In this document: positions 1-19,557 of the stretch, one piece after another | Position numbering within the stretch: position 1 is the stretch's first letter | How the letters are laid out: the number at the start of each line of letters is the position of its first letter | Assembly (NCBI GenBank): GCA_937902115.1 | Contig: CALGSR010000446.1 | Location: 1 to 35,621, forward strand | From: an uncultured Bacillus sp. | GTDB taxonomy: Bacteria; Bacillota; Bacilli; Bacillales; Cytobacillaceae | DNA: 35,621 nucleotides | Reading direction: 5' to 3' | Notes under the pieces: generated by a model | What the model saw: the letters and a program-made list of their open reading frames with translations, nothing else | What the model was told of the DNA's origin: nothing | Databases searched by the model: none | Position numbers and translations under genes: made by a program

Positions 1-14
1 GTATCACTGTGGAT

Positions 15-1629: not shown

Positions 1630-1647
1630 TCAAATATAATACTGTAA

Positions 1648-1871: not shown

Positions 1872-1890
1872 CACATAGAGGATATTAATC

Positions 1891-1933: not shown

Positions 1934-1996
1934 GTGTTTCATAATTTTCGCTGGTTCCGGTATCACATTTGCAAACTATTGATTGCAGCATTGCAT

Positions 1997-3400: not shown

Positions 3401-4107
3401 CTAACTTCACGTCTATTCTTGGTTAGTAATTTATAGCCTAATCCCCTTACTGTTAATAAAGATTCAGGTTTAGATGGATTATCTTCAATCTTTTCACGAA
3501 TTCTTCTAATGTGGGCCATTAAAGAGTTCTCATATCCAAAATTATCACCCCAAACAGCCTCGCACAATAAATCAATCGTTACGATCCGGTTGGAATTTTG
3601 GTTTAATGTCTCTAATATTCTATATTCTGTGGCAGTTAATGGGAGCACTGTATCCCTTTTTGTTACAAGCCCTTTATCAAAATCAATTGAACTATGCTGT
3701 AAAAGTACACTTAATTCTTCTGGATAAACTCTTCTTAAAATAGCTTCGATACGTAATATTAATTCTTTCGGTAAAAAGGGTTTGGTGATGTAATCATCAG
3801 CACCCAAAGAAAGTCCTTTTAATTTATCTTTATCTTCCCCTTTGGCTGTCAAAAAGATAACAGGTATATCGGACTTTCGCTGAATAAACTCAAATAAATC
3901 GTAACCGGTACCATCGGGTAACATAATATCCAATATCACTATATCTGGTTCAAAAATCTGTAAAACTTCTTGGGCTTCAATGACAGATTGTGCAGTTTGA
4001 ATATTATTGAAACCATTATCATTAAGAATGGAAACAATCATTTTTAGTAAGGTTCCTTCATCATCGACAATTAGTACCTTCCTGGCATACCTCCCTATTA
4101 CATTCAT
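3397..4107 (-). CDS. OmpR-family response regulator
   Basis: Receiver motifs LIVDDE, ILDIMLPD and GADDYITKPF; C-terminal winged helix HIRRIREKIE..TVRGLGY. Confidence 0.96.
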   Translation of the reverse strand: MNVIGRYARKVLIVDDEGTLLKMIVSILNDNGFNNIQTAQSVIEAQEVLQIFEPDIVILDIMLPDGTGYDLFEFIQRKSDIPVIFLTAKGEDKDKLKGLSLGADDYITKPFLPKELILRIEAILRRVYPEELSVLLQHSSIDFDKGLVTKRDTVLPLTATEYRILETLNQNSNRIVTIDLLCEAVWGDNFGYENSLMAHIRRIREKIEDNPSKPESLLTVRGLGYKLLTKNRREVR

Positions 4108-4173
4108 AATCTACCACCCCCTCTAATGAATTTATCATAATGAAAATGAAAAGTTATTTCCACTTAAGAAAAG

Positions 4174-4211
4174 TAAAGTAAATGTAAGGTAGGAAGAAGG
4201 AGAGTGTAAGG
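4174..4211 (+). promoter_or_regulatory. Four 11-bp-phased direct repeats, probable response-regulator boxes
   Basis: TAAAG at 4174, TAAGG at 4185, GAAGG at 4196 and TAAGG at 4207, between the divergent regulator and ABC genes. Confidence 0.6.
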
Positions 4212-4255
4212 AAGGATTGTTAAATTAATAGATAATAGCGAAGGGGGAAATAAAG

Positions 4256-5005
4256 GTGAACATAATCGAAACAAATGATTTAACAAAAACATATAAAAAT
4301 TTCACTGCCGTCAACAAAGTGAATTTGCATGTAAAAAAAGGCCGTATCTATGGTTTTCTAGGGCCAAATGGTGCTGGAAAATCAACAACTATGAAAATGC
4401 TATTAGGTTTAACAGAACCAACATCAGGTAGTTTTCATATTAATAGTAAAACCTTCCCGAAAGAACGAGAGCTTATATTAAAAAATATTGGTTCCATTAT
4501 TGAAGCACCGTCTTTCTATGGCAATTTAACAGGGCGAGAGAACCTTGATATCATTCGGAAAGTATTGGATTTACCGAAGGAATCAGTCGATGAAACGTTA
4601 AAATTAGTTGGGTTGGATGAATTCGGGGATAGATTAGCAAAAAAGTATTCATTGGGAATGAAGCAAAGATTGGGAATTGCTTCCGCTTTGATTGGAAGCC
4701 CCCCTATATTAATTTTGGATGAACCGACAAATAGTTTAGATCCAGTAGGAACACATGAAATTCGGAATTTAATTATTTCATTACCCAAACAAACAGGCTG
4801 CACGATTATTATATCATCCCATTTATTATCTGAAATGCAATTAATGGCAGAGGATGTTGGCATTCTCAATAAGGGAAGGCTTTTATTTGAAGGCAGTATG
4901 AAAGAATTATATTTAAAAGCAGAAAAGGAAGGGTATGGTTCGGAAAACCTTGAGGATATGTTCCTTGGGATGATTGATAAGGATAACCGAGAGGGAAGAG
5001 GGTGA
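4256..5005 (+). CDS. ABC transporter ATP-binding subunit, LanF/BcrA-type
   Basis: Walker A GPNGAGKST, E-loop IIEAP typical of LanF, signature YSLGMKQRLG, Walker B LILDEPTN. Confidence 0.92.
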   Translation: MNIIETNDLTKTYKNFTAVNKVNLHVKKGRIYGFLGPNGAGKSTTMKMLLGLTEPTSGSFHINSKTFPKERELILKNIGSIIEAPSFYGNLTGRENLDIIRKVLDLPKESVDETLKLVGLDEFGDRLAKKYSLGMKQRLGIASALIGSPPILILDEPTNSLDPVGTHEIRNLIISLPKQTGCTIIISSHLLSEMQLMAEDVGILNKGRLLFEGSMKELYLKAEKEGYGSENLEDMFLGMIDKDNREGRG

Positions 5006-5010
5006 AATAG

Positions 5011-5742
5011 GTGGGGATGCATTCACTAAGTATTGAAGTACAAAAACTACGCAGAGCAGGAGTAATAGGAACACTCATGCTGGCAGGAGCCGCGGGTTCA
5101 ATCTATGCTGTGATGAATTGGGTAGGTCGCAAGGAAGTCTTGCTTGCTGCAGACATCAATCCAATGTCAGTTTTATTAACCCAGTTATACGGTGTTATTT
5201 GTTTGTTAAACATCTTTGCGATCATCGTGATCACTAGTAACATTTATTATATTGAGCATCAAAACAATGGATTAAAAAGGATGCGGACGCTGCCTATTAA
5301 AATTTCAGAAATCTTTACTAGTAAACTGGTTATTTTAAGTGGAACGCTTTTGATAGCGTATGTAATAGAATTTACTACTTTGGCATTGTTAGGGAATCTT
5401 TACTTACCTAAAGAGACATTTGATTTCATTGTACTTATTCAATTTGCATTTTATGTTTTTTTAATATCACTGCCTTGTTTAACCTTAATGTTAATGGTAT
5501 CTATGCTTTCCGCTAATCTTTGGATTACTATTGGAATTGGCGTTGTAGGATTTTTTAGTGGTATGTCGATGGTGGCGATGGATACTGCCGTTAATACACT
5601 AAATCCATTTGCCTTAATATTAAAACCTGCTATGAGTTTATCGGCAGAGGTAGATCTCATTATGTTAATGATTTCTGTTATCGAAACTATAATTTTTGTT
5701 GCGATCGGGATTTTTATTGCAAATAAGAGGAAAGAGGAATAG
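5011..5742 (+). CDS. ABC-2 permease, LanE-like lantibiotic-immunity type
   Basis: About 6 TM segments; N-terminal E-x2-KLRR and EHQNNG..TLP motifs. Confidence 0.85.
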   Translation: MGMHSLSIEVQKLRRAGVIGTLMLAGAAGSIYAVMNWVGRKEVLLAADINPMSVLLTQLYGVICLLNIFAIIVITSNIYYIEHQNNGLKRMRTLPIKISEIFTSKLVILSGTLLIAYVIEFTTLALLGNLYLPKETFDFIVLIQFAFYVFLISLPCLTLMLMVSMLSANLWITIGIGVVGFFSGMSMVAMDTAVNTLNPFALILKPAMSLSAEVDLIMLMISVIETIIFVAIGIFIANKRKEE

Positions 5743-5753
5743 GAGAATGAATT

Positions 5754-6518
5754 ATGACATTTATTCAATTAATTCAAATTGAATTTCAGAAAATAAAGAG
5801 GGCAAAAATAATGCCAATATTAGCTATATGTCCCTTACTTATCATTATTTCGGGGATTAATAGTTTAATGAATTATATTTCTCCGGAAACAGAAGGAGCT
5901 TGGCAGGCTATGTTTGTACAAAGCTGTCTTTTATTCGCTTATTATTTATTACCTTTTACGATGATAGTCGTATCAATATTAATAACCCAACGGGAAAAGG
6001 AAAATAACGGGATTGTAAAAATGCTATCGCTGCCTATCAAAAGGCAAAAGGTGGCTCTTGCTAAGTTTATTGTATTTTTATTTTTCTTGTTCATAGAGGT
6101 TTTGTTGTTTTTCATATTCTTTGTCATTTCCGGCTTATATGCTGCAAACAGGATTGGATTACACGAATCTGTGCCATACGGATATATTCTAGAATGGAGC
6201 GGTATCATATTTTTCACGGCAATCCCTCTTGTTTCACTGATATGGATGTTAGCAATCCTATTCGAAAAGGCAATATTAACGATTGGTATAAGTATGTTAA
6301 TGGTTATAGCTTCTGTATTTATTGCCAATACAAGCTATTGGGCACTTTTCCCTTTTAGCTACAGTGGGATATTCGTAACTGCTGAATTAAGCAGAATCTC
6401 CAATGGAGCAACGAGTTTAAACGTAGATTTATTCCCGTTTATACCAGTGGCACTTCTAATAACAGCTGCTTCTTTATATATTTCTTCCAATAGATTTGGA
6501 AAGATAGAAATAAGGTAA
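5754..6518 (+). CDS. ABC-2 permease, LanG-like lantibiotic-immunity type
   Basis: About 6 TM segments; IEFQKIKR and EKENNG..MLSLP..AK motifs; paralogous to the preceding permease. Confidence 0.85.
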   Translation: MTFIQLIQIEFQKIKRAKIMPILAICPLLIIISGINSLMNYISPETEGAWQAMFVQSCLLFAYYLLPFTMIVVSILITQREKENNGIVKMLSLPIKRQKVALAKFIVFLFFLFIEVLLFFIFFVISGLYAANRIGLHESVPYGYILEWSGIIFFTAIPLVSLIWMLAILFEKAILTIGISMLMVIASVFIANTSYWALFPFSYSGIFVTAELSRISNGATSLNVDLFPFIPVALLITAASLYISSNRFGKIEIR

Positions 6519-6716
6519 AATACCAAATGATGAACATGGAAGGTTTTGCTGCGATAACACGAAAAATGTATGGTATAGTCTCTCGCAAGTTGTATAAACT
6601 GGTGAGAGGCCTCATTTGTATTTCGGACTTTTGGAAAATGCCTGCTTGGATAGATGACCGCCATTCATTTTTCTACATGACATCTTTGATGCTATATAGA
6701 TGTATTTTGTAGATAT

Positions 6717-6821
6717 GATTGTTTAGAAGCCCAAGGATTCATTGGGAAAAGCCCAAGGGAAACGATTAAACAGGCGTTTCAAATTGGAATAATTGAAGAC
6801 GGTCATCTTTAGATCGAGGCT
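6717..6821 (+). pseudogene. Fragment of an HI0074-family (HEPN, nucleotidyltransferase substrate-binding) gene
   Basis: Translates as DCLEAQGFIGKSPRETIKQAFQIGIIEDGHL*IEA. The SPRExIKQAFQxGxIEDG pattern matches my recollection of this family, and TAG stands where a Trp codon (TGG) is expected. No start codon or RBS. Confidence 0.7.
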
Positions 6822-6858
6822 TCCTATGAGTTAAATAGACTTGTGAGAAGTCCTTTTT
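6817..6858. terminator. Degenerate hairpin related to the one at 1891
   Basis: AGGCTTCCTATGAGTTAAATAGACTTGTGAGAAGTCCTTTTT. Confidence 0.55.
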
Positions 6859-7236
6859 GTATTTCTTGTTTTTTCGCACCGTTGTCGGCAACTCCTCCCT
6901 GATGGTGCCTAGTATCACATTCACTTCCGAAGTCAGTAAATATCAGGACTTTTTGGATTACTGCATCGAGAACTATGTGTTATTAACCACCTAAGTTTTA
7001 AATCAATTAGAAATCTACTTTATTACAAGACAAACCAAAAAATGGGTGGTAATAATGGATATGTATAATTCTAACAATTATATAGTTGTAAAAATTATTT
7101 AATTTTTTAAAAATTTGGGAAATTTGTAAAAATTTGTTGTACCCGGTATATTTTTACATCATTATGATGGTAATAGAATTTATTATTGTAGATTAAGAGA
7201 AAATTTCTATACAAAGATAATATAGAGTTCAGATTA

Positions 7237-7360
7237 GGGATAAAAGGTGAAACTTCCATCAATGGGTTTTTTGACGCACAGGAAGTGCTAGTGCAGACAA
7301 AGACATAAGGACATAACGCTACTTAATCGACCTGCTCGTTAAGAGTGGGAAAAATGCTGA
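7237..7360. repeat. Possible degenerate Bacillaceae interspersed repeat
   Basis: GC-richer patch (GGGATAAAAGGTGAAACTTCCATCAATGGG...GACGCACAGGAAGTGCTAGTGC) inside very AT-rich DNA. Resemblance to Bacillus intergenic repeats is from memory only. Confidence 0.3.
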
Positions 7361-7459
7361 ACATGTTAATTGATCAAATGCTTTTAGAAAAATCATATAC
7401 TTTCATACAGAACAAAAGACGTTCGTATGGCATTTATCAAATAGCTTTGAAGGGGGGGA

Positions 7460-7672
7460 ATGACAAACACGCTAGACTTAGCAACGTATAAAATGATGAA
7501 TCAATTTTATAAACTGCAAGAAAATAAGGCTGCTCTCGTATTTATCATTGTATTAATCATTTTATTAGTCTTTGCTTATGATTTTTATTGTACTTCAAAC
7601 GGAATGAACTTCGCAGGGGAACAAAATGTGAAAAAAACAGGCGCATCTTATAAAATCGGTTGTTATACATAG
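7460..7672 (+). CDS. Putative bacteriocin precursor: leader, TM helix and Cys-x23-Cys tail (cluster 1)
   Basis: Strong RBS GAAGGGGGGA; 70 aa; hydrophobic ALVFIIVLIILLVFAY; tail CTSNGMNF...KTGASYKIGC resembles the peptide at 16173. Confidence 0.7.
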   Translation: MTNTLDLATYKMMNQFYKLQENKAALVFIIVLIILLVFAYDFYCTSNGMNFAGEQNVKKTGASYKIGCYT

Positions 7673-7678
7673 CAATAT

Positions 7679-7712
7679 CCTGCACAAACTAGAAAAAAAC
7701 GGCTTGTGCAGG
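7679..7712 (+). promoter_or_regulatory. Stem-loop directly after the precursor gene, without a U-tract
   Basis: CCTGCACAA (7679-7687) pairs with TTGTGCAGG (7704-7712). Confidence 0.55.
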
Positions 7713-7735
7713 TTCAAAAGGTGGATGAGTAAAAG

Positions 7736-8500
7736 ATGAATGAAATATTACAAGTACTAGATTTGAAAAAGTCTTACCATGGCAAACCAATTATCAAGGA
7801 TTTTTCGATTACATTAAAAAAAGCACATATTAGCACATTACTAGGTCACAATGGTGCTGGAAAGACTACTGCAATAAGAACAATACTTGGTCTAGAGGAA
7901 AAGATTAATGGAGAAATTTTATTTAAAGGAAAGAATATTAAGGAAGATTATAATGATTATAAAAGTAAGCTAGGTTTTATACCAGATGATGAGTTATTTG
8001 ATGATCTTACAGCAATGGAGTATTCGAACTTTTTAGGTAAGGTGAGGAAAATTCCCAAGAAGGACTTTGATAATATAACAAATCATCTAATGGATATACT
8101 AGATTTATATTCATTTAGAAATAATCTACTAAAAACCTATTCGCATGGAATGAGACGGAAAGTACAAATTATCTCTGGAATTATCCACAATCCAGAAATT
8201 CTCATTATTGATGAACCTACAAATGGTTTGGACCCAGATATGATTATCACCTTTAAAGAATTAATTAAGATCCTGCGTGATTTAGGTACAGTAATCTTGT
8301 TAAGTACACATAATTTGGAGTTTGCTGAAAATATAAGTGATAGCATTACAATTATAAAAAAAGGTGAGATAAAAATTAGTGGACTTAAACAGCATATGCT
8401 TAAAGAACTTCAGGTAAAAAATCTCGAAGAGGCCTATATAAAAGTAAACTTGGATTCGCAAAAATTGCAAAGTATAAGGGATATATTTAATTATGCATAA
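7736..8500 (+). CDS. ABC transporter ATP-binding protein (cluster 1)
   Basis: Walker A GHNGAGKTT, signature YSHGMRRK, Walker B LIIDEPT, H-loop STH. Confidence 0.93.
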   Translation: MNEILQVLDLKKSYHGKPIIKDFSITLKKAHISTLLGHNGAGKTTAIRTILGLEEKINGEILFKGKNIKEDYNDYKSKLGFIPDDELFDDLTAMEYSNFLGKVRKIPKKDFDNITNHLMDILDLYSFRNNLLKTYSHGMRRKVQIISGIIHNPEILIIDEPTNGLDPDMIITFKELIKILRDLGTVILLSTHNLEFAENISDSITIIKKGEIKISGLKQHMLKELQVKNLEEAYIKVNLDSQKLQSIRDIFNYA

Positions 8501-9929
8501 TACTCTATATTTAAAAATATGGAAAAATAAATTTATACACCAACTAAGGAGAAATCCGATATTTATCGTTTTCCCTATTTTATTTATTGCAATCATTTCC
8601 ATTGCATCGATTAAAATTACAAATGCAAACATTTTAATGATAAAAGAGGTAGGAGATAATCTAGTTGTGAATCAAATACTATCTCAAAGTCTAATGGCCT
8701 CAAATTTATTTTCGCTAATGATTGCTTTATTATTGTTCTTTATCTTTAAGGATAATTTTAATCGGTCAAATTTATTGCGGATTTTGCCGATGGCTAATTA
8801 CCAACTGCTAATGATTGAGTTATTACCATTCATCTGTTTGATAATGGGCTTTGTTTGCGCACTATACACGCCAACGTATATCTATCTATTTATCCAATCC
8901 ATGAATGAATATATTTTCCTGGATTTTCTTTTTATGACGCTCTTCCTATTAATGAATTGTAATGCGATTTTCTTTTCTTTTATAAACGTGTATTTTTTTA
9001 ATAATATTTCAGCATATATTGCGCATAAAATAAGGAAGGAGTTTCTACAGGAACTATTATTTTTTTCGATGATAATGGGGTGTGGCTATGTATACTATCA
9101 GATTTTCAAAAAGACCAATTTCTACGGAATAGTGACAAATAATATTTTTGTAGAAGGAGAGACCCTCGCAACATTATTTAATTGCCTACCGATTATTATA
9201 TTATCTGCTATTATTTTATTCCTATTTTGTATCATTAGTTTTATGCAAAAGATACCATTACAAAATGGGTCGACTGCATTTCTATTCATTCCGTTTTCGA
9301 AGTTCTTTCCTTTAAATGTTGTTGTATTAGAGTTTAAAAGAGTTGCTCGAGATTATCAACGAATTATGACCATTAACTTTTTATTTTTATGTCTTTTACT
9401 ACTCAATTGGTTCGCTCTTAAAAACCCGGAGAATAATGAATTGCTAATGATTTCGCAGTTTATCCCTATGTTTGTGATTGAAATCGTCATTTTACTTCCA
9501 TTAGTCGCTAATTCAAGGGATTATAAGAAAGAAAACCTAATTTATTTATTACCGACTAAATACGATTATTTTATTATTCTAAAATTAACATTCTATCTGG
9601 TTTTATCGCTCCTTTTAGCGGGTACTTACTTTATTCTCCATTCATTATTTGGTTTAGATCAATCTGCCATTCATTTAGCATTGTTTTTTGAAATTTTGCT
9701 CTTTACAATAATTGCTTTTCTTGTTGGAACATTTTTACCTTCTGACAAAAATTCTGGACTTCAAGAGGGACTAGGATTAATCATTTTATTTATTCTATAT
9801 TTCACTTTAACCTATACAATGAACTCTTTGGGAATTTACAAAATTGAATATTTAGTATTGCTTTGTTTCCTCCTTTTTCTCCTTTCCCCATTTGTCATTA
9901 AAAGAGTTTCAGTGGGAGTTCATAAATAA
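8493..9929 (+). CDS. Multi-pass membrane protein, probable fused ABC-2 permease (cluster 1)
   Basis: 478 aa with about 12 hydrophobic segments; mid-protein LEFKRVARD typical of ABC-2 permease halves; overlaps the ATPase stop. Confidence 0.75.
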   Translation: MHNTLYLKIWKNKFIHQLRRNPIFIVFPILFIAIISIASIKITNANILMIKEVGDNLVVNQILSQSLMASNLFSLMIALLLFFIFKDNFNRSNLLRILPMANYQLLMIELLPFICLIMGFVCALYTPTYIYLFIQSMNEYIFLDFLFMTLFLLMNCNAIFFSFINVYFFNNISAYIAHKIRKEFLQELLFFSMIMGCGYVYYQIFKKTNFYGIVTNNIFVEGETLATLFNCLPIIILSAIILFLFCIISFMQKIPLQNGSTAFLFIPFSKFFPLNVVVLEFKRVARDYQRIMTINFLFLCLLLLNWFALKNPENNELLMISQFIPMFVIEIVILLPLVANSRDYKKENLIYLLPTKYDYFIILKLTFYLVLSLLLAGTYFILHSLFGLDQSAIHLALFFEILLFTIIAFLVGTFLPSDKNSGLQEGLGLIILFILYFTLTYTMNSLGIYKIEYLVLLCFLLFLLSPFVIKRVSVGVHK

Positions 9930-9930
9930 G

Positions 9931-10428
9931 ATGATTACGGAGATAAGCCCCACGAAATTTAACATTTTTCTAGTTGCTAACGTATTTTATGGTATGAGAA
10001 ATTTTCTTGTTTTCCATTTGTTTTTTTGTTTGGCGGTATTTATGATTTTAGTCTTATTCGCAAGTTCTTCTTTAGGGAACTTATTCTTAATGATTTACGC
10101 GAACTTTATAATAAGTATGGTTTTACATAAGTTTGGACATCTCATTCCATATCTTCTGTTTACGAAATGTAGGCAATTTTTCATTATTAAGTCAAGTTTA
10201 TTCGAATTGTCGATTATTACAAAGGAAAATTCAAGGCTGCAACATGTAATCATTGCCTTTTCAGGGCCAGCAATTTGTTTATTCGTAGGGGTTGCTGTCA
10301 TACAAGCCAATCCACTAATCGGACTTGTATACTGCCTTCATATCGTGAACTATTATCCAACATTGCAAGATGGTGAAAATATACTAAAAAATATAATAAG
10401 GAGTCGAAAAAAGCATGGAAGTATTTAA
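9931..10428 (+). CDS. Small site-2/M50-like intramembrane metalloprotease with degenerate HExxH (HKFGH)
   Basis: LHKFGH, IAFSGP and NYYPTLQDG match the M50 pattern HExxH...AGP...N-x-P-x-DG. ATG at 9931 follows GGGAG. Confidence 0.7.
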   Translation: MITEISPTKFNIFLVANVFYGMRNFLVFHLFFCLAVFMILVLFASSSLGNLFLMIYANFIISMVLHKFGHLIPYLLFTKCRQFFIIKSSLFELSIITKENSRLQHVIIAFSGPAICLFVGVAVIQANPLIGLVYCLHIVNYYPTLQDGENILKNIIRSRKKHGSI

Positions 10429-10696
10429 AAAAGTATCTACAGGTTTTTTTATTTTTGTTCTTCTTTATGCGTTATTGGTTATGTTTATTCCATTGCTCTT
10501 AGATTTTATGAATATAACAATGAATGTAAAAATAAAACTATTCTCATTAGAACTTGGTGAAATTGTTAATAATTCAAAAGAAATGTATGGAATATTAACT
10601 ATTAATGGTCTCTTACTATCTGGTATAGTTGGTGCATTATTAAATATCTCATTTTATTATATGTTTAGAAGAAGAACCCACCATTCACCGCTTTGA
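10415..10696 (+). CDS. Small 2-TM protein with a beta-rich loop (immunity or accessory, possibly LlsX-like)
   Basis: 93 aa, two TM helices, RBS AGGAG, translationally coupled; counterpart of 18319-18606. Confidence 0.65.
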   Translation: MEVFKKVSTGFFIFVLLYALLVMFIPLLLDFMNITMNVKIKLFSLELGEIVNNSKEMYGILTINGLLLSGIVGALLNISFYYMFRRRTHHSPL

Positions 10697-10710
10697 AGAA
10701 GCGGTGTTTT
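10686..10710 (+). terminator. Rho-independent terminator ending cluster 1
   Basis: CACCGCTT-tgaag-AAGCGGTG-TTTT. Confidence 0.75.
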
Positions 10711-11005
10711 CTCTTATAATGACTTCTTCCACAATTGGAAAGTGATCGGTACGGGGCCTGACTTCATGATGTTGGGCTGCCTTTTCTTTTTATCTTTAGT
10801 AATCGTTCAAACGAAAGGGTATTTATATGAGAAACAATCATAACATTATAGAAAAAACCTGATATTTTATGCTTTGGATAATAAAAGATAGAATCTATAT
10901 GTTATTTTTTCGCTTTTTTATAACGTAACGTTTAAAATTGTAATATAATGTACAAAAATATATAGTATATAAAACAAAATTTTTGATGAATGGGAGGTAG
11001 GAGAT

Positions 11006-12226
11006 ATGGTTAGGCATTTATATAAAATTTTTAGAGAAAAGGAACGTTTAGAATTCGATCATATTTTTAAAGAAAGACAGAATTATGAAAGTTTGATGAA
11101 ACTTCCGTTTAAAATAAAACCATTAGATCAACCTGAAAATTTCACACTGTATTATATACCGACTCAAAATATCATTGAACTTATTGTTAAGATTTATAAA
11201 CAAGATAACCAATTATTGAAACTAAGTAGTGAGTTGCCGTCAATTGCGAAAAAAAATCTAATTTTAGAATTGTTGGTTGATGAACTGCACAATACAAATG
11301 ATTTAGAAGGTGTAAGAAGTACAAAAGAAGAAATCATTAGAAGTGCGAGAGAAGTAGAGGCAAGTCCGGATAAAAAGACTAATCACAGATTCAGCAGCAT
11401 GGTTTCTACTTATTACAATTTACTCAGGGATGAAAAAGTAGTGATAAATGAACCGAGAGATATCAGGGAAATTTATGATGACATTACGGAAGATGAAATA
11501 GAAAAGAATGAGATTCCTGATGGTAAAATGTTTAGAGTTGATACCACTTACGTTTATAAGAAAAGCGGATCAGGGAAAGTAATTCATAGAGGAATTACTC
11601 CTGAAGATAAAATTATCGAGGCAATTGAACAATTGATCAATTTTATGAATGAGGGAGATTTTCCTTTTTTGATAAAAATCGCTGTTGGACATTATTATTT
11701 TGGATATATACACCCTTTTTACGATGGCAATGGAAGAACATCTAGATTTATAAGCAGCTTATATCTTAATAATGAGTGTAGTGAATTAACTGCTCTTTCT
11801 TTATCAAGAGGATGTAATAATTTTAGAAGTAAATATTTACATTCGTTCGAAATAGCTAATAGCTTTGCTAACAGAGGTGAAATGAATAACTTTATTGAAA
11901 ATTTTTTAGCAATCATTTCTGAAACTCAACAGGAAATGATTTTACAGGTTAAGGAAAAAGTACATTTATTTGATAATCTTTGGGAAATACTTGATAGCGA
12001 CCACCGACTGGATGAACGTTGTAAAGGAATTATGTTTATATTAGCTCAGAATTATTATTTTGCACTTGATGAAAAAGGATTAACAGTTAGGGAATTAGCC
12101 GAAATTACCAAGAAATCCTCACAGTACATTAGGAGTATTTTAAAAGAGTTAGGCAACTATGACATAATCAGTCAAAGAGGAGAACGTCCAATTATTTATT
12201 CAATTAGCGAAAAGTATTTTGATTAA
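11006..12226 (+). CDS. Fic-family protein with C-terminal winged HTH
   Basis: HPFYDGNGRTSR, inhibitory motif TNDLEG, C-terminal LTVRELAEITKKS..IRSILKEL; RBS GGAGG. Confidence 0.93.
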   Translation: MVRHLYKIFREKERLEFDHIFKERQNYESLMKLPFKIKPLDQPENFTLYYIPTQNIIELIVKIYKQDNQLLKLSSELPSIAKKNLILELLVDELHNTNDLEGVRSTKEEIIRSAREVEASPDKKTNHRFSSMVSTYYNLLRDEKVVINEPRDIREIYDDITEDEIEKNEIPDGKMFRVDTTYVYKKSGSGKVIHRGITPEDKIIEAIEQLINFMNEGDFPFLIKIAVGHYYFGYIHPFYDGNGRTSRFISSLYLNNECSELTALSLSRGCNNFRSKYLHSFEIANSFANRGEMNNFIENFLAIISETQQEMILQVKEKVHLFDNLWEILDSDHRLDERCKGIMFILAQNYYFALDEKGLTVRELAEITKKSSQYIRSILKELGNYDIISQRGERPIIYSISEKYFD

Positions 12227-12316
12227 TATTACACTCCTTCTCAATTGGAAAGCAAGTAAGCCCTAGAATACAGTTAATGAGTTCTCTTCGGAGTGGGGAC
12301 TGGATAAATAATCTAA

Positions 12317-12348
12317 AAAGCCCCTTACTCTTTTGAGTTTGGGGCTTT
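12317..12348. terminator. Hairpin terminator after the second Fic gene
   Basis: AAAGCCCC..ACTC-tttt-GAGT..GGGGCTTT. Confidence 0.65.
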
Positions 12349-12552
12349 AAGGAATTTTAAGTCTCAATTTATTTCTGGACAGGGAAATTATTAAATCGAT
12401 AGTACTCGTATTCAGCTCTTAAAACAATATTAATCGAATTCGTTTCTACTGGTTTATGGAAAAAAATATATGAAATGAAAAAGATGACTAATAAGAAGCT
12501 GCTATGGCCTTTGATGTTTTCGATGGTGGACTCTACGCGAAAGGGGTATAAA

Positions 12553-13688
12553 ATGGGATTAAATAAAGATAAGAGCCAAAGGAATAAAATTACAGGAATA
12601 GTTACATTAAAGGAGGGGCTATCCGCCTTGAAAGCCGCTGAACTTCATGACATCCGGAAAAATCTGCAAATCGGAAATATAAGCTCCTTAAAAAAGCGGA
12701 GTTAATTCAATATTTGGCTGAAGCAATTCCTTACATATTGAGCGATATTATCAGACAGTTCGATGAGCAGCGATTATTACTAATAAAAAGTATCATTGCC
12801 AATAATGGTGTCATTAGTGTAAAGAATGTAGAAATTGAGGCGATGGAGTATTTCGATAAAACCGGCTTTATGTTTACTAGTTTTCAGAATGACAATCTAC
12901 TCGTTATGATTCCTTTGGACTTATTGCCTGCTCTAGAAGGGATCGTTCGGGATGAAAAGATACTTGCAGAGGTTAAGCGGAATACGGAATGGATCAAGAT
13001 CACCCGCGGGTTACTCTATTATTATGGAACAGTGCCGTATGATAGGTTAGTGGATTTAGTTGAGAAATATACGCCTATTCATCCAAGTTATCTTGCCTTT
13101 AATCATGTCATTTTTGATGCGATGGAGTACTACCAGGAAATATATATTGATAAGTACGGTTATTCCTATTGGGAAGTGATGGAGCCTTTGGCGGTTTTAG
13201 AAGGGCAGGCCTCGAGAAATAATATTGACTACTATCCCTTTGCGAAGAAACAGCTCCTTGAAGCGGGCGAAATTTACTTTGTGGAGCGTCCAAAGGGTTC
13301 TATAAAACTACTAACGCTATTTACGCAGGAGTATCGGATGCCAAAACAAGAGGCGATAGAGCTTATTGAAACTTGTATCATGCAGGTGAAATTAGGCGAT
13401 CAACCTGGTCAACTTCATCAATTTTTACAAACGCAACTGACATTCGATAGCTTAGAAGCTATTCAGAGACTGACGGATGCTGTTATTGTTCTTATGAATA
13501 ATACAAGGGAATGGTATTTAAAGGGATATACCTCAGTAGGGTTATCCGCCCAAGAGAAGAAGTCATTATTGCCACTGCCTAATAAAAAAGGAGAGGTTGT
13601 TAATCTCCAAACCCGGCAAAAGATAGGCAGAAACGACCCTTGTCCATGTGGGAGCGGGAAGAAATTTAAAAAATGCTGTGGGAATTGA
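12553..13688 (+). pseudogene. SEC-C motif protein split by a -1 frameshift at A_AAA_AAG (12690-12696)
   Basis: RBS AAGGGG before ATG 12553. A -1 shift joins ...ISSLKK to [12 protein letters not shown]..., giving a Rho-N-like SSLKKAELI motif. C-terminus [21 protein letters not shown]. Confidence 0.75.
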
Positions 13689-13828
13689 AAATCTTATATT
13701 GGGGTACCTGCACTTGTCGAATTTTCCCCTGGGTACATTATTTATTAGGTACATTTGTTTTGGTATGTAAAGGAGCAAAGTTACTACCCACTTTATATTT
13801 TTCAATATAGTAAAAAGGATGATACAGT

Positions 13829-14128
13829 GTGGCAACAAAAAGAGATGCAGAGGCATGGGCAACGGCAAAAAAACGCTGCCGTTTAAATGAGGCGGATATA
13901 CAAATGGCAAAGGAATTAGGCATGACACCAAAGAATTTAATTAAAAATATCCCTGCTTCTAACCAACAATGGAAAGCTCCCGTAAAGGTATGGATTCGTA
14001 ATTTATATGAGGAGAAGTTTAATCGGGTTCTGACAGTTAAAGCTGTTCCTGGTGTAGAAACAAAAAGTAAAGCCAAAAGGAAAGAAAAACCGATCAAGGG
14101 GATTGTTGAGGATGACTTGCCGTTTTGA
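13829..14128 (+). CDS. Hypothetical basic protein, 99 aa
   Basis: RBS AAAGGA, GTG start, protein-like sequence (AKELGMTP..WKAPV..WI) ending in DDLPF. Confidence 0.75.
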   Translation: MATKRDAEAWATAKKRCRLNEADIQMAKELGMTPKNLIKNIPASNQQWKAPVKVWIRNLYEEKFNRVLTVKAVPGVETKSKAKRKEKPIKGIVEDDLPF

Positions 14129-14408
14129 CGCCGAGCGGGGTAAACAAAATCTTGATATGAGTTATTTAAAAGATCGTAATAGGAAAATGATCTATAGGAG
14201 AGGTTAATGGACCAAAAACCAAGGAAATTGTCAGGAAAACGGTCCAATGAAGGAATTCTTAAGGAATACTTAATAAAAAAAGGGGGTACTATTGGATATA
14301 ATTGTAAACGGGATAATGAAAGGAGAGATCTATAGTTTTCTAGATATCCAAAAAGAGCAAAAAACAGCTAATGTGTATGCAAGTAAAAGAGTTCTGGAGG
14401 GAAAATGC

Positions 14409-15302
14409 TTGAAAAAAGTGGTGATAGGTATTGTGGGGTGCCTGCTGCTTATTATGTTGTATGTAGCAGGTACATTTGTTTATCAGTCTACATTTGCCAG
14501 GGAGAAAATAGATGAAGAGAAAACAATTGAGCTAGGTCAGATTAAGTCTATCGATGTTAGAACGTCTTCTGCAAATATTAGGGTCTTATCAAATACAACC
14601 GATCAAATAAAGATTAATGTGGATGGAGAAATGAATAAAAAGCTTAAAGAGCAATATCAACTGATTGTAGAAGAAGTGAATGGTCAATTAGTCATTGAAT
14701 ATCTTGCAAATGAAAATACGGTTGGGATTAAGTTTGGGAGCGAAAATGATATCACGATAAGCATTCTTTTACCGGAAAAGGATTATCAAAGATTTAATAT
14801 GGTAACATCTTCGGGAAATATCGAAGTGGAGAATCTGGTTGCAGATAATATAGAGATAACTACAACTTCCGGCTCTCAATCACTGATTGATTCTGAAATA
14901 AAGGGAGATGCTATGATTCAATCAACTAGTGGTGATATCGTATGGGAAAGTAGTATACTAACAGCATTTCAGGTCAATACAACGAGCGGAAAGGTCAAAA
15001 CCAAGGCCTTGGCCGCAAAAAATGGACGAATTGAAACAACTTCTGGTAATGTCACATTAAATATGGGAAGTGAGATGGAAGAAATACAAATAGAAACGAC
15101 AAGTGGGGATGTTGCGGTAGATTACGAAAAAAATCCAGACTCGCTTAAATTAACCTTTGCTGGAAGCTCAGGGAAATCAGATATTAATTTGCCTGGTATG
15201 ATGTACGATGAAGAGAGTGAAAATTCAGCCATTGGGGTGCTTGGAGATGGTTCAAATATATTGGATGTAAAAACGACTTCGGGGGATTTAGTCGTCCATT
15301 AA
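14409..15302 (+). CDS. DUF4097/LiaG-like membrane-anchored beta-repeat protein
   Basis: TTG start after GGAGG; N-terminal TM; many T(T/S)SG(D/N)(I/V) repeats. Confidence 0.85.
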   Translation: MKKVVIGIVGCLLLIMLYVAGTFVYQSTFAREKIDEEKTIELGQIKSIDVRTSSANIRVLSNTTDQIKINVDGEMNKKLKEQYQLIVEEVNGQLVIEYLANENTVGIKFGSENDITISILLPEKDYQRFNMVTSSGNIEVENLVADNIEITTTSGSQSLIDSEIKGDAMIQSTSGDIVWESSILTAFQVNTTSGKVKTKALAAKNGRIETTSGNVTLNMGSEMEEIQIETTSGDVAVDYEKNPDSLKLTFAGSSGKSDINLPGMMYDEESENSAIGVLGDGSNILDVKTTSGDLVVH

Positions 15303-15423
15303 ATGGTTCGGACATCTTTTTATAGATAAGACTGTACAATTAAAGTAAAATGAGTGAGTAGGGGTGGAAATAAATTCCACACCCTTGCTTGCACGATAAT
15401 CTTGTAAAGATGGAGGCGTTAAT

Positions 15424-15744
15424 ATGTTTGGTTCCCCTTTTCAGTACTTTACGATCGATCCAATTACCAACTGGTCTAGATTTTTTAACTTCACCATTAA
15501 CAACAACTATGATGATCATGAAATAGAAGAATATGTGTTAAGAAGAGTTGGAAGCTATGGAAAACAAATTGGAAAAATGATGGATGTCATTGGAATTCTT
15601 CTTGATGCACTGCCGCAGGAAACGTTGGAGAATCTTACCGAAGAACAGAAGGGAAAAATACGCGATCTCCAAGTGTTGTATCACAATGTTGAGGATGCAA
15701 AAGGTCATTATAAAAAGACACATTATCCTCCATCTTGTCAGTAG
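15424..15744 (+). CDS. Hypothetical protein, 106 aa
   Basis: RBS GGAGG and a plausible helical sequence; family not recognised. Confidence 0.7.
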   Translation: MFGSPFQYFTIDPITNWSRFFNFTINNNYDDHEIEEYVLRRVGSYGKQIGKMMDVIGILLDALPQETLENLTEEQKGKIRDLQVLYHNVEDAKGHYKKTHYPPSCQ

Positions 15745-15811
15745 TTTTGTGTGGATCCGCTATTGAGTTTGTGAATAAAAGCTGTAATTGTTGCTTTTTG
15801 TTTTGCCAAAA

Positions 15812-15853
15812 GAGGTCTCTCGTGAGTTCAGTGAACTTTATGGGAGGCTTTTT
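15812..15853. terminator. Hairpin of the 1891 palindrome family
   Basis: GAGGTCTCTCGTGAGTTC-agt-GAACTTTATGGGAGGCTTTTT. Confidence 0.6.
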
Positions 15854-15965
15854 AATATTATCATAACCTAGTTAATTATCGATTTCGGTAGGTGACAGCG
15901 CCTAAGCTCTACATATAATTTCTGAGTGACTAGGCACTTCTGAACAAGTTTTCGCCAAGCATACG

Positions 15966-16030
15966 TGGGACAATGAACCCGTCCCCTTGTCCCTAAGAAT
16001 AATTGGGACAATGAACTTGGAACCTTGCCC
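15966..16030. repeat. REP-like palindrome with a degenerate tandem copy
   Basis: TGGGACAATGAAC at 15966 and 16004 (38 bp apart); the first copy folds as GGGACAA...TTGTCCC. Confidence 0.6.
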
Positions 16031-16172
16031 TTAAAGTAAGAATAATTAAAGTGTTAAAATTACATTATATTGTTAATATTTGGTAAAATACATTTACTAG
16101 GATGGCAAGATATGTAATATTCTAAAGTGATAGAAGGTTATGAAAGAATAGAAGGCGAGGAGAGATAAGAAA

Positions 16173-16439
16173 ATGAGTTTATCGTTAGAGAATACACTTA
16201 TTCTACTTTACACACGAGTACTTTTATTTATTGGAAACGTAAAAGAAAGTTTGGTAAAACAGAGTGATAATCAAAAGTTAAAATTATTTGCTGGTCCACT
16301 TGTATTCATTGTAGTTGTTATTGCAGTTGTATTTGTGGCATGGGCACTTGGTCAAACGATTTGCTGGGCAACAACAGGCAAGGACTTTGTATTCGCTACA
16401 AAGTTAAAAGAAGGAGAATTCCGTTTAGGTTGTCAATAA
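16173..16439 (+). CDS. Putative bacteriocin precursor: leader, TM helix and Cys-x22-Cys tail (cluster 2)
   Basis: RBS GAGGAG; 88 aa; TM PLVFIVVVIAVVFVAWALG; tail CWATTGKDF...KEGEFRLGC. Confidence 0.7.
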   Translation: MSLSLENTLILLYTRVLLFIGNVKESLVKQSDNQKLKLFAGPLVFIVVVIAVVFVAWALGQTICWATTGKDFVFATKLKEGEFRLGCQ

Positions 16440-16485
16440 TAAACTAAAACCTTTCATAACCTTCTGTTCTCTTAATGGATTTGGA

Positions 16486-17865
16486 GTGGAAAAGATGGTA
16501 AGAGACTTCATTTTATTGTTAACGGTCTTATTGTATAAAGTAAAGAATCGAATCCTAATATTTGCATCACAAAGGCCAGAAGTGTTTTTTTCGTTTTTAC
16601 TCATCGTATTGGTAGGAGGAAGTGCGGCTCTATTCCTTCCAATGTTGCTAGATTTTCAAGTCGAGATGACAGAGGAACAGTTTCCTAGAATATCTTATAC
16701 TTTTATCACGGCTTCCCTGTTTCCTTTTATTGTTTGGGTATTAAGACAGAACCATGAAGAAACACAGTCTTTCACGATATTGGACTACATGTATCGAGGG
16801 TATTTTGTTTATTTTAAGTCTGTATTTCAGTATATAGCCCCTGCTTTTTTGTCTTTTGTTTTTCTTTATCTGATCCTATCCATCTATTCAAATCTATCAA
16901 TCTTGTATTCTTTGCTATTCTGGCATATTGTGGGTTTAAGTATTATGGTGATCAGTTATTCTTTCGCATTATTGATAAACAACAAGGGAATAGACTGGAG
17001 GCTTATTAAACATTCTCATACTTTTTTAAAAACTGTAGTCGTGATTTTAGTTTTACTTATTATGATGCTTCCGTTTCATAAAGGATTAGGTACACTATGG
17101 TTATCCAAATCTGTGCCTTTTGAATTCTTAATAGTTTTATTTATAGGGTTAATGTGCTTGTATATTTTTCTTATTTCTCAAAAAGTTCGATTTGGAAAGG
17201 GACACGATGGGCTGGAAAGCAGCCGCACTCGATTTAAAGACCAGGACTCTATTTATTCCTTTCTTCTATTGGTAGATAGTGGGAAGGTATTCCTTTTTCA
17301 TTTCTTATCGATCTTATTTTTGTTCATTTTATCTTTGATTACCGAACAGCCTTTTGTTATGATGGAACTTTTTCAGATTATTATCATTATAGGAAACATC
17401 GGTTTGATCTTTCATAAAGTAGAAAAAGTAGCAAGGCCGTTATATGCATTACGCGCTTCTAATTTTACCTTTTCCATATGGCTTTTACACTTTTATGTAC
17501 TGATTTCGATTGTATCCGTTCTGATCTTTTACATTTTGATTTCTATATCTAGTGAGTATTCCTTATTCTTTTTATTAGAGAATACGGAACCTCTCGTGAG
17601 CGGAATCGTTCTTTATTTTTGTATTTTCTTATCCATTGTGGTGAGTTACTTATTCGGTGACTATTTTGGACCAATTGTTCAATCAATTTCTAGTGGGGTC
17701 ATTTTAATTATTAGCTATAAAATTGTCCCTGAGATTTTCCTTAGAGTAACGATGATTCACAACATTTTTTTAGAAGGGGTTGTATGGTTATTCCTTGTGT
17801 GTGTCATGTTTCTTATTAAATGGCTGACCATACAAGATTATAGTAAATATGACTTTACTGCGTAG
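16486..17865 (+). CDS. Multi-pass membrane protein, probable permease (cluster 2)
   Basis: 459 aa with about 12 hydrophobic segments in two halves; same size class as 8493-9929. Confidence 0.75.
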   Translation: MEKMVRDFILLLTVLLYKVKNRILIFASQRPEVFFSFLLIVLVGGSAALFLPMLLDFQVEMTEEQFPRISYTFITASLFPFIVWVLRQNHEETQSFTILDYMYRGYFVYFKSVFQYIAPAFLSFVFLYLILSIYSNLSILYSLLFWHIVGLSIMVISYSFALLINNKGIDWRLIKHSHTFLKTVVVILVLLIMMLPFHKGLGTLWLSKSVPFEFLIVLFIGLMCLYIFLISQKVRFGKGHDGLESSRTRFKDQDSIYSFLLLVDSGKVFLFHFLSILFLFILSLITEQPFVMMELFQIIIIIGNIGLIFHKVEKVARPLYALRASNFTFSIWLLHFYVLISIVSVLIFYILISISSEYSLFFLLENTEPLVSGIVLYFCIFLSIVVSYLFGDYFGPIVQSISSGVILIISYKIVPEIFLRVTMIHNIFLEGVVWLFLVCVMFLIKWLTIQDYSKYDFTA

Positions 17866-18322
17866 TTATCTTCATTTGGTGTTATTCTGCTTGTCGCACT
17901 CTAAGGTGTTTTTATTGGTGTGTTTTCTTATTATTTGGCTGATGTCAACGGATTGGTTACTGTCAATAGGGCTTGTGCTATTATTTCTATTGTATACGTG
18001 TTTTCATGAATTCGGTCATCTAATATTTTTGAAAAAATATCAGTTGGATTATCAACTTGAGGTCACTTATTTACTATTGAATGTTTCTTTTTGTGCTGCT
18101 TCCTTTAGGAAGCTTACATTCTCCCAAAAACTACAGATTGTTTTAGGTGGTCCCCTGTTTGGTTGTTTATATGGGGGGAGTCTATTATTCCTATTGGAAT
18201 CATCTAGCTATTTGATATGGCTTGTCGTTCTTATCATTCTATCGGAAGGGATGAACCTACTCTTTGGTCAAGATGGTAAGTTACTAGAAAAAGTAATAAA
18301 AGAAAGGAAGAGAACAAAATGA
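17849..18322 (+). CDS. Small site-2/M50-like intramembrane zinc metalloprotease (cluster 2)
   Basis: FHEFGH within a TM segment, IVLGGP and NLLFGQDG. Confidence 0.78.
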   Translation: MTLLRSYLHLVLFCLSHSKVFLLVCFLIIWLMSTDWLLSIGLVLLFLLYTCFHEFGHLIFLKKYQLDYQLEVTYLLLNVSFCAASFRKLTFSQKLQIVLGGPLFGCLYGGSLLFLLESSSYLIWLVVLIILSEGMNLLFGQDGKLLEKVIKERKRTK

Positions 18323-18606
18323 GAAATATTCGAGTGTACTTGATTTGTACCATTCTCAATCTTTTACTGTTAGTTTTTTCAAGCTTTTATTTTTTTGCTA
18401 AAAACTTAAGTGAGCCTGTGAAAGAGAATACATACATTCCTTTTGAAGGGTTATATCTGTACGAGTTATTAGAGAATGGTGAAGTCTCTGTCCACATTAT
18501 TAACATTTTGATTTATTCTGTCGTGCTTGCGATTCCTGTTTTCTTTCTATTGAAATTTTTTAGTCAAATAATAACGAAAAAATTAATCAATAAAGGAAAT
18601 CTGTAA
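18319..18606 (+). CDS. Small 2-TM protein (immunity or accessory, possibly LlsX-like; cluster 2)
   Basis: 95 aa, two TM helices flanking YIPFEGLYLYEL; ATGA overlap with the protease gene. Confidence 0.65.
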   Translation: MRNIRVYLICTILNLLLLVFSSFYFFAKNLSEPVKENTYIPFEGLYLYELLENGEVSVHIINILIYSVVLAIPVFFLLKFFSQIITKKLINKGNL

Positions 18607-18607
18607 G

Positions 18608-19339
18608 ATGCTTTCAGCTATTTCGGTCAATCATTTAACGAAAACTTTTGGAACGAATCGCGCTTTGGATGACATTCATTTAACCTTTGATAAGAACAAG
18701 ACCTATGCGGTTTTAGGGCATAATGGGGCTGGGAAAACCACTTTAATAAGAGAAATTTTGGGTTTTGGCAACAAGAGGAATTCAGCTATAGAGTATCGAA
18801 CTGAAACGCAAACGATTCAAAAAGTGAAGCTTCATATGTCTTTTTCACCTGAGAAATATGAATTGTTAGAGGACTTAACAGTTTATGAATATTTACAATT
18901 TGTAGCCAAATTATACAAACAGTATAACGATCAGGTTCTAATGAAAATGGAGGAATTACTCGAGTACTTTGAATTAGAGGATAAAAGAAATAAATTTATC
19001 TTCACATTATCGAATGGAATGAAGAAGAAGCTATGTCATATTTCCGCATTAGCAGTGGAGACCGATTTTGTTTTCCTAGATGAACCTTTCGCAGCTTTAG
19101 ATCCTGTTTCCATTTATCACTTAAAAAAATATATTGTTGACCATTCCGGTTCAAGAGGCTTTATTATTTGTACGCACCAATTGGACATAATCGATAAAAT
19201 GGAATTTCAAGAGGATACATTGGAGATTATTTTACTGAATCAAGGAGAACTGAAATTTAAAGGAGATAAAAAGTCTCTTTTTGAATCTACTAGTAAGCAT
19301 TCGATTGAAGAGGCATATATTGATTATCATAAGAGGTAA
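18608..19339 (+). CDS. ABC transporter ATP-binding protein (cluster 2)
   Basis: Walker A GHNGAGKTT, LSNGMKKK, FLDEPF, CTH; C-terminal IEEAYI like the cluster 1 ATPase (LEEAYI). Confidence 0.93.
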   Translation: MLSAISVNHLTKTFGTNRALDDIHLTFDKNKTYAVLGHNGAGKTTLIREILGFGNKRNSAIEYRTETQTIQKVKLHMSFSPEKYELLEDLTVYEYLQFVAKLYKQYNDQVLMKMEELLEYFELEDKRNKFIFTLSNGMKKKLCHISALAVETDFVFLDEPFAALDPVSIYHLKKYIVDHSGSRGFIICTHQLDIIDKMEFQEDTLEIILLNQGELKFKGDKKSLFESTSKHSIEEAYIDYHKR

Positions 19340-19382
19340 GAATAGATGTAATTGACATCATTGAATCCTTAATCAAGGTGTT

Positions 19383-19414
19383 AAAGGTCACGAGTTATGC
19401 TCGTGGCCTTTTTT
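19383..19414 (+). terminator. Terminator ending cluster 2 (short member of the palindrome family)
   Basis: AAAGGTCACGAG-ttatg-CTCGTGGCCTTTTTT. Confidence 0.8.
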
Positions 19415-19557
19415 AACTATGAATCTGTCAATCTTTTTCGGGTTTTATCAAAATGTATTTGCCCCCTTATTTTTTGCTAAAAAGGGTAAACAGTTGACAG
19501 TTTAACCAATTTCCCCGTAAAGTTGCATAGGATACAAATTATAACGGAGGAGAAAAG

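What the first reader, a model, noticed from the sequence alone, without database searches (positions are those of the whole stretch)
16173..19339. Cluster 2: apparently intact TM-helix bacteriocin-like locus
Seen: an 88-aa precursor with a ~40-aa leader ending near FAG-P, a Val/Ile-rich TM helix and a C-x22-C tail, plus a permease, a protease with intact HEFGH/GGP/DG, a 2-TM protein, an ATPase and a terminator. Inference: the best candidate here for a functional new antimicrobial peptide that standard RiPP/bacteriocin rules may miss.
Basis: partly seen in the sequence, partly recalled or inferred. Interest (0 to 1): 0.85.

Follow-up and report, generated by a model that had tools for sequence, protein, structure and literature searches.

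The report
Divergent TMcin-like membrane bacteriocin operon
Five intact neighbouring genes likely make, cut and export a small membrane-spanning antibacterial peptide of the recently described TMcin kind, from a distant branch that the published family list does not include.

Summary
Five unbroken, closely coupled ORFs encode an 88-aa one-helix precursor (Cys64-x22-Cys87), a 12-TM permease, a HExxH protease, a 2-TM protein and an ABC ATPase, followed by a strong hairpin. This is the parts list of the TMcin bacteriocins (tmcA/C/P/E/B; PMC12328743, PMC13712780), so the class is known. The locus is a distant branch. Six other loci keep the order A-C-P-E-B, among them Priestia, Evansella and Bacillus sp. 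N13C7; permease homologues occur in the B. subtilis group. The AlphaFold2 model gives helix plus beta-hairpin. Homology to canonical TMcins is moderate by profile-profile comparison (precursor E 5e-5 with bridging sequences, protease E 1.6e-4), and undetected for the permease, the 2-TM protein, or by HMM search. Differences: no N-terminal flanking Trp, CW instead of WC, and a protease lacking the S2P proline but with an invariant Glu. One relative (G877) keeps only permease, 2-TM protein and ATPase, a candidate immunity cassette. Activity and cleavage are untested. Verdict: new variant of a known kind.

The parts
16173..16439 (+). tmcA-like precursor, 88 aa: predicted leader 1-39, TM helix about 40-63, Cys64, beta-hairpin, Cys87
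   Evidence: ORF; hydropathy; AF2 model H2-30, H37-67, E72-75, E84-87, mean pLDDT 66; C64, F72, G81, C87 invariant in 11 aligned precursors including 5 canonical TmcA
16290..16436 (+). predicted mature peptide Ala40-Gln88, 49 aa, 5,295.8 Da monoisotopic with one disulfide, 61% hydrophobic (inferred cleavage F39|A40)
   Evidence: Ala40 aligns without gaps with mature +1 of canonical TMcins, 24 residues before the first Cys (TMcin-G1905 mature sequence); mass; core 46-71% and tail 52-68% identical to four relatives, leader 8-28%
16495..17865 (+). tmcC-like 12-TM ABC permease, 456 aa
   Evidence: 12 TM segments; no Pfam/NCBIfam family over cut-off; 11 homologues among 1.84 billion representatives; sequence link to canonical TmcC not detected
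17849..18322 (+). tmcP-like site-2-type intramembrane zinc protease, 157 aa; HEFGH at 18005-18019, GGP at 18146-18154, E-x2-N-L-x4-DG at 18245-18277, without the usual Pro
   Evidence: Pfam Peptidase_M50 E 4.3e-4, below cut-off; hhalign to canonical TmcP prob 51%, E 1.6e-4, score 32.7 vs shuffle max 17.9; motifs
18319..18606 (+). tmcE-like 2-TM escort candidate, 95 aa, with a conserved loop between the helices
   Evidence: 2 TM segments; 33-52% identical in 4 relatives; same size and place as canonical TmcE; sequence link not detected
18608..19339 (+). tmcB-like ABC ATPase, 243 aa, catalytic motifs intact
   Evidence: PF00005 E 1.3e-21; motifs; branch clade 100/100 in ATPase tree
19383..19415 (+). 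likely intrinsic terminator: 13-bp stem, 3-nt loop, U run
   Evidence: -23.7 kcal/mol, z -6.26, 0 of 200 shuffles

Best explanation
This is an intact five-gene operon that likely makes a TMcin-type pore-forming bacteriocin inside the producer's own membrane. Inferred steps, each by analogy with S. aureus TMcin-G1905 (PMC13712780): (1) the 88-aa precursor inserts by its single helix; (2) Cys64-Cys87 is oxidised outside the cell by the host's own thiol-disulfide oxidase, since the operon has none but the genome carries a DsbB/BdbC gene; (3) the 2-TM protein escorts the precursor to the 4-TM-type zinc protease, which would cut near F39|A40; (4) the ABC ATPase dimer and 12-TM permease extract the roughly 5.3 kDa helix-plus-hairpin peptide; (5) the peptide would oligomerise into helix-anchored beta-barrel pores in Gram-positive competitors. 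Shown here: gene set, intact frames, motifs, conserved operon order and Cys register, predicted fold. Not shown: cleavage, disulfide, export, binding between parts, pores, killing.
For: Parts list equals the TMcin core operon tmcA, B, C (12 TMH), E (2 TMH), P (S2P). Canonical loci fetched here show the same five genes in orders B-C-E-P-A and A-B-C-P-E. Six other loci have A-C-P-E-B: L001, L033, L034, L036, L038, L039, with L039 nearly identical to L036. Of 5 other loci that carry a clear permease homologue and were found or confirmed by it, 4 are complete. Leader diverges while core and Cys tail are conserved. AF2 gives helix + two-strand hairpin with the Cys at each end, the published TMcin fold. 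Precursor profile vs canonical TmcA plus two bridging precursors: hhalign prob 67%, E 5e-5, score 25.7 vs max 18.4 in 40 column shuffles. Protease vs canonical TmcP E 1.6e-4; it falls outside the starred clade (96/93) of 24 classical M50 proteases, in an unresolved group with TmcP. The Priestia plasmid copy is followed by thioredoxin and MauE genes, as expected if the disulfide matters; G000 has PF02600 DsbB over cut-off. Patchy spread, varied flanks and low GC (32.8% vs 39.5% genome) fit a mobile competition locus: 0 of 268 family genomes by the protease, 2 clear hits in 400 order genomes, 1 of 49 genomes in the genus of G325. One RNA-run contig (243 nt, 0 differences) spans the protease/2-TM junction, a weak hint of transcription.
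Against: No experiment. An HMM of 7 canonical TmcA ranks the precursor only 29th of 14,367 genome ORFs (E 9.4) and the protease 63rd. The branch's precursor profile does not find the canonical TmcA in G325 or G481. hhalign against canonical TmcA alone is weak (prob 8-10%, score within or at the shuffle range). Permease and 2-TM protein show no detectable link to TmcC/TmcE. The ATPase tree groups them with TmcB only at 87/40, with one unrelated genome ATPase inside. The conserved N-terminal flanking Trp is missing. All 6 branch proteases lack the Pro that PMC13712780 calls an S2P hallmark, and do not hit DUF3267 where scanned (window and Priestia). G877 keeps permease, 2-TM protein and ATPase with no precursor or protease found.
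Confidence: 0.75

Rival explanations
1. The operon processes and exports the same helix-hairpin peptide, but it serves as a signal or membrane-modifying peptide, not a pore-forming antibiotic.
For: Site-2 proteases also release signalling peptides (established knowledge). The branch lacks the N-terminal Trp and has a different hairpin sequence; net charge is near neutral (4 K/R, 3 D/E). No regulator is tied to the operon across relatives.
Against: Same fold and Cys register as a peptide shown to form pores. No cognate receptor or kinase gene is conserved next to the seven loci. Patchy, mobile spread is typical of bacteriocins.
Confidence: 0.1
2. The genes are intact but the locus is functionally dead or silent here; for instance the Pro-less protease does not cut.
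For: The protease lacks the S2P Pro and has a shorter Asn-to-Asp loop. The neighbouring cluster 1 has HKFGH in place of HExxH and the C361 locus has a stop in its permease, so decay happens in this genome. Evidence of transcription is one short contig.
Against: The Pro-less motif is shared by all 6 branch proteases at 32-35% identity, with H, E, H, N, D and an extra Glu invariant: a conserved variant, not decay. All five frames and the ATPase motifs are intact.
Confidence: 0.1
3. The ABC transporter with the 2-TM protein is a stand-alone resistance or efflux module, and the peptide and protease are dispensable passengers.
For: G877 has intact permease, 2-TM protein and ATPase (46%, 55%, 64% identical to L038's) with no precursor or protease found in the genome (95% complete). 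Its permease cluster has 26 members.
Against: 4 of 5 permease-bearing loci examined keep all five genes in one order with overlapping or abutting frames. The G877 state is explained as simply by loss of production genes with retention of immunity. Only one genome of that cluster was examined.
Confidence: 0.05

Closest known systems
TMcin family, model TMcin-G1905 of Staphylococcus aureus (Dickey et al. 2025, PMC12328743; Nur, Antwi, Dickey 2026, PMC13712780)
   Same: One operon of precursor, ABC ATPase, 12-TM permease, short S2P-type HExxH protease and 2-TM escort. Precursor with leader, TM helix, and C-terminal two-strand hairpin closed by two Cys. First Cys at mature position 25 by alignment; C, F, G, C register shared. 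No oxidase gene in the operon, as in non-staphylococcal TMcin clusters.
   Different: Gene order A-C-P-E-B, not seen in the 6 canonical loci fetched (the paper's Fig. 3b with three arrangements could not be viewed). N-terminal [AG]W[FYW] replaced by A-G/N-P; CW instead of WC with a further W at +18; C-x22-C (canonical 23-24); ends F[RK][LI]GC instead of [EQ]C. Protease lacks the Pro and the DUF3267 hit and has an invariant Glu; no PqqD-like domain as in Bacillus-type TmcP. Not in the published homologue sheet: 0 hits for Priestia, Evansella, debilis, subtilis or the ICWA motif.
Site-2 protease clan (MEROPS MM; Pfam Peptidase_M50; DUF3267/PF11667)
   Same: HExxH in a TM segment, GGP, distal Asn and Asp; a joint profile pulls classical M50 proteases across the phylum.
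   Different: Only about 157 aa; NLxxxxD with no Pro, where 24 of 26 outgroup sequences show NxxP...DG; own clade 95/96 on a long branch.
Cluster 1 of this window (7460-10696) and L081-type TMcin-like loci
   Same: Same five-gene set; their precursors end in [IM]GC and bridge canonical TmcA (hhalign prob 89%) and this branch (prob 22% alone, 67% pooled with canonical).
   Different: Order A-B-C-P-E; shorter helix; cluster 1 protease has HKFGH; identities to cluster 2 are only 21-31%.

Membership tests
TMcin bacteriocins | Precursor with leader and one full TM helix kept in the mature part | tested here: met
   Hydropathy peak 38-56; AF2 helix 37-67 with pLDDT 75-85; leader divergent, core conserved
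TMcin bacteriocins | [quoted passage not shown] | tested here: met
   C64 and C87 invariant in 11 aligned precursors; strands 72-75 and 84-87 in the model at low confidence, pLDDT 54-58. The disulfide itself is not shown.
TMcin bacteriocins | TM helix flanked by two conserved Trp | tested here: not met
   The N-terminal Trp is replaced by Gly/Asn in all 6 branch precursors; a Trp follows rather than precedes the first Cys
TMcin bacteriocins | Sequence homology to TmcA (family was defined by PSI-BLAST) | tested here: inconclusive
   HMM search not significant (E 9.4); hhalign E 0.003-0.004 to canonical alone and 5e-5 with two bridging precursors, above 40 shuffles. Only 5-7 canonical sequences were in hand.
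TMcin bacteriocins | Core operon with tmcB, tmcC (12 TMH), tmcE (2 TMH), tmcP | tested here: met
   All present by size, topology and motifs and conserved in six other loci; for C and E the match is by anatomy only
TMcin bacteriocins | TmcP is an S2P protease with HExxH plus distal Asp and Pro (DUF3267) | tested here: inconclusive
   HExxH, Asn and Asp present; Pro absent; no DUF3267 hit, but 2 of 4 canonical TmcP scanned also miss it; hhalign to TmcP E 1.6e-4
TMcin bacteriocins | Leader removal in the membrane, ABC export, oligomeric beta-barrel pores, killing of Gram-positive bacteria | not testable with these tools
   Needs expression, MS and membrane assays
Peptidase M50 / site-2 proteases | HExxH and NxxPxxxxDG zinc site in TM segments | tested here: inconclusive
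   PF02163 20.1 bits, under the 27.2 cut-off; Pro missing; single-sequence fold too poor to compare (pLDDT 57.5)

The most novel reading that the evidence does not exclude
A separate sister lineage of TMcins, invisible to the searches that defined the family and reaching the B. subtilis group, uses a new proline-free, glutamate-bearing site-2 protease active site. Its natural precursor-less, protease-less form (G877: permease + 2-TM protein + ATPase only) reveals the still unidentified TMcin immunity mechanism: escort plus ABC transporter pulling incoming peptide out of the membrane.
Probability: 0.3. Interest if true: 0.62.

Novelty: new variant of a known kind. Interest (0 to 1): 0.42.

Why it matters
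TMcins are the only small antimicrobial peptides reported to form large stable pores, and only one member has been purified in the papers found. This branch widens the family beyond its PSI-BLAST boundary and shows which features are dispensable (the N-terminal Trp, the protease Pro) and which are not (the Cys pair, F and G of the hairpin). It offers non-pathogen Bacillus hosts for study. The first TMcin paper shows immunity is encoded on the plasmid without naming the gene, and the word does not occur in the main text of the 2026 paper; the natural three-gene cassette in G877 makes that question directly testable in a laboratory strain.

Tried and rejected
The search for homologous proteins with the precursor and with the protease returned only themselves. 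The protease found nothing in 268 family genomes. The permease alignment found nothing in metagenome contigs, and the precursor alignment nothing in viral contigs. The weak order-level hit G711 (E 9e-4) has no such operon around it and was dropped as chance. Single-sequence fold of the protease was too poor to use. Foldseek of the precursor model against PDB gave no match at E <= 0.001. Complex prediction of protease + 2-TM protein + Zn + precursor: no answer; score 0.64, but the control with the protease replaced scored 0.56; not used as evidence either way. ESM Atlas: precursor's nearest clusters are unnamed 80-92 aa proteins of Bacillota and Actinomycetota (0.91, 0.88, 0.88), compatible with TMcins but unverifiable; the 2-TM protein's hits are all under 0.9. 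Promoter scan at chance level (16 vs 15.0 expected), so no promoter is claimed. Of 20 matches to the motif used to fetch canonical loci, 7 (in 6 genomes) were TmcA and the rest were dropped. The split permease of L026 was left out of the canonical permease profile. The HKFGH codon of cluster 1 was not covered by any listed contig. Earlier scan findings held no look-alike. Considered and rejected: circular bacteriocin (no DUF95 hit), lactococcin 972 (only a generic ABC hit far under cut-off), daptide protease (12.8 bits vs 300).
Full report
Observation. The window is the whole contig C446 of a 4.05 Mb, 88.5% complete genome. Hydropathy gives 1, 12, 3 (by a crude cut-off) and 2 TM segments for A, C, P and E. 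A 13-bp hairpin with a U run follows (z -6.3). Only B has a Pfam family over cut-off; P has a sub-threshold M50 hit. Contigs of three DNA runs from three studies (biogas fermenter and compost metagenomes by their records) match across the cluster at 99% or more, and one 243-nt contig of an RNA run spans the P/E junction; none spans the whole, and DNA in an RNA library is not excluded.

What is known. A search for 'TMcin' gave three relevant papers. I read parts 1-4 of 10 of PMC12328743 (abstract, results, discussion, start of methods), passages, and parts 258-260 of its source-data file, which hold most of the 142 listed TmcA homologues (the first rows in part 257 were only term-searched). I read parts 1-4 of 6 of PMC13712780 and term passages; the preprint only as a listing. 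Figures, including the three gene arrangements of Fig. 3b, could not be seen, and one supplementary PDF had no text. These papers define a core operon tmcA/B/C/E/P: the precursor is cut in the membrane by the S2P protease TmcP with the 2-TM escort TmcE, oxidised at two Cys, exported by TmcBC (12-TMH permease), and forms large beta-barrel pores. A second search on general terms found no other system of this kind among 4 papers listed.

Relatives. Searches with A or P alone returned only the window's proteins. A weak plasmid hit led to a full five-gene copy on Priestia megaterium plasmid NZ_CP117691.1 (28-52% identity, same order), followed by thioredoxin and MauE genes. The permease has 11 homologues among 1.84 billion representatives; named members include Evansella vedderi, Caldibacillus debilis and B. 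subtilis, B. halotolerans, B. inaquosorum and B. vallismortis strains (context not seen for most). Loci with order A-C-P-E-B: L001, L033 (E. vedderi), L034 (Bacillus sp. N13C7, just after groEL), L036 (G923), and L038 and L039 from metagenomes, the last nearly identical to L036. L038 and L039 were found by the precursor, so they are selected for it. G877 (L035), whose permease is identical to P0019 of the cluster named C. debilis, has intact C, E and B, but neither A nor P was found beside them or elsewhere in the 95% complete genome. The branch is rare: 0 of 268 family genomes by P, 2 clear hits in 400 order genomes, 1 of 49 in the genus of G325.

Relation to TMcins. I fetched six canonical loci with a short motif; by eye several precursors match entries of the published list. 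Aligned with them, the branch precursors share C64, F72, G81 and C87, and Ala40 falls on mature +1, predicting a 49-aa, 5,295.8 Da oxidised product. The leader is 8-28% identical among branch members, the helix 46-71% and the tail 52-68%. AlphaFold2 with four sequences gives leader helix, TM helix 37-67 and strands 72-75/84-87 (mean pLDDT 66, hairpin weak). Statistical links are modest. A canonical HMM ranks A 29th and P 63rd of 14,367 ORFs, neither significant. hhalign gives P prob 51%, E 1.6e-4 (shuffle max 17.9 vs 32.7); A prob 8%, within the shuffle range; nothing for C or E. Adding two bridging precursors (cluster 1 of this window and L081) raises A to prob 67%, E 5e-5, score 25.7 against a shuffle maximum of 18.4, while HMM-to-sequence searches stay non-significant. 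In trees the branch is a clade for P (95/96) and B (100/100). P lies outside a starred clade of 24 classical M50 proteases, unresolved with TmcP on long branches; B groups with TmcB only weakly (87/40).

Differences. By eye nearly all published TmcA read begin the mature part with [AG]W[FYW] and have WC or YC; the branch has A-G/N-P and CW. All six branch proteases end in E-x2-N-L-x4-D without the Pro seen in 24 of 26 outgroup proteases and in canonical TmcP. Because this is conserved at about one-third identity with all zinc ligands kept, I read it as a variant active site, not decay. No oxidase gene is in the operon; the genome has a DsbB-family gene next to a CxxC protein on C498.

Mechanism and rivals. 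The best-supported reading (0.75) is TMcin-type membrane biosynthesis and pore formation, every biochemical step inferred. Rivals: a non-lethal signal peptide (0.10), an intact but dead or silent locus (0.10), a stand-alone transporter (0.05). 'Works like a TMcin' is well supported. 'Is a member' is only partly met: one descriptive feature (two flanking Trp) fails and sequence homology is borderline, so I file it as a variant branch, not a plain member.

Novelty. What is new is a distant, unlisted branch with an altered protease motif, in tractable hosts, and a natural three-gene remnant that suggests where TMcin immunity lies. Interest 0.42.

Noticed in passing
window 7460-10696 (+): Cluster 1: a second TMcin-like operon in the canonical Bacillus order A-B-C-P-E. 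Its protease matches the canonical TmcP profile best in the genome (E 2.4e-5) but reads HKFGH, lacking the catalytic Glu. Its 70-aa precursor links to canonical TmcA through L081 (E 6.8e-6). The K codon was not covered by laid contigs.
   Followed up: partly
G000:C361 6525-9319 (-): A third related cassette in the same genome: ATPase, permease with an in-frame TAA, HELGH protease with N..P..DG, 2-TM protein; no precursor seen next to it. Its ATPase pairs with cluster 1's (94/87).
   Followed up: partly
L035 4402-7121 (G877): Permease, 2-TM protein and ATPase intact; precursor and protease not found; about 330 bp without detectable remnant between permease and 2-TM gene. Candidate immunity-only cassette.
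   Followed up: partly
L024 8447-9406, L028 2826-3710: Bacillus-type canonical TmcP carries an N-terminal PqqD-like (RiPP recognition) domain (E 2.7e-6 over cut-off; 7e-4 under). 'PqqD', 'RRE' and 'recognition element' do not occur in the main text of PMC13712780.
   Followed up: partly
L081 3392-6871 (G1087) and L082 9-4410 (G1224): Two further TMcin-like operons in distant Bacillota families: A-B-C-E-P-thioredoxin-like with a 118-aa protease, and A(cut by contig end)-P-B-C-E; the superfamily is wider than listed.
   Followed up: partly
window 18319-18606: ESM Atlas places the 2-TM protein near the LlsX family (PF19388; feature score 0.85, TM 0.62) and YfzA, both under the tool's bar; a lead that escort-like 2-TM proteins recur in other peptide clusters.
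   Followed up: no
L001 9680-10505: Thioredoxin plus MauE/DoxX-like gene directly after the Priestia plasmid operon, a possible dedicated disulfide-forming pair.
   Followed up: no
window 1-19400: Lower-GC stretch (30-35% vs 39.5% genome) with two Fic-domain genes (862-1629, 11006-12226), a two-component pair and a three-gene ABC set at 1997-6518 that by recall resembles lantibiotic-immunity transporters, and a LiaG-like gene: looks like a competition and defence island.
   Followed up: no
window 15966-16030: Short repeated element upstream of the precursor; loose contig ends in other runs pile up here, suggesting a dispersed repeat.
   Followed up: no
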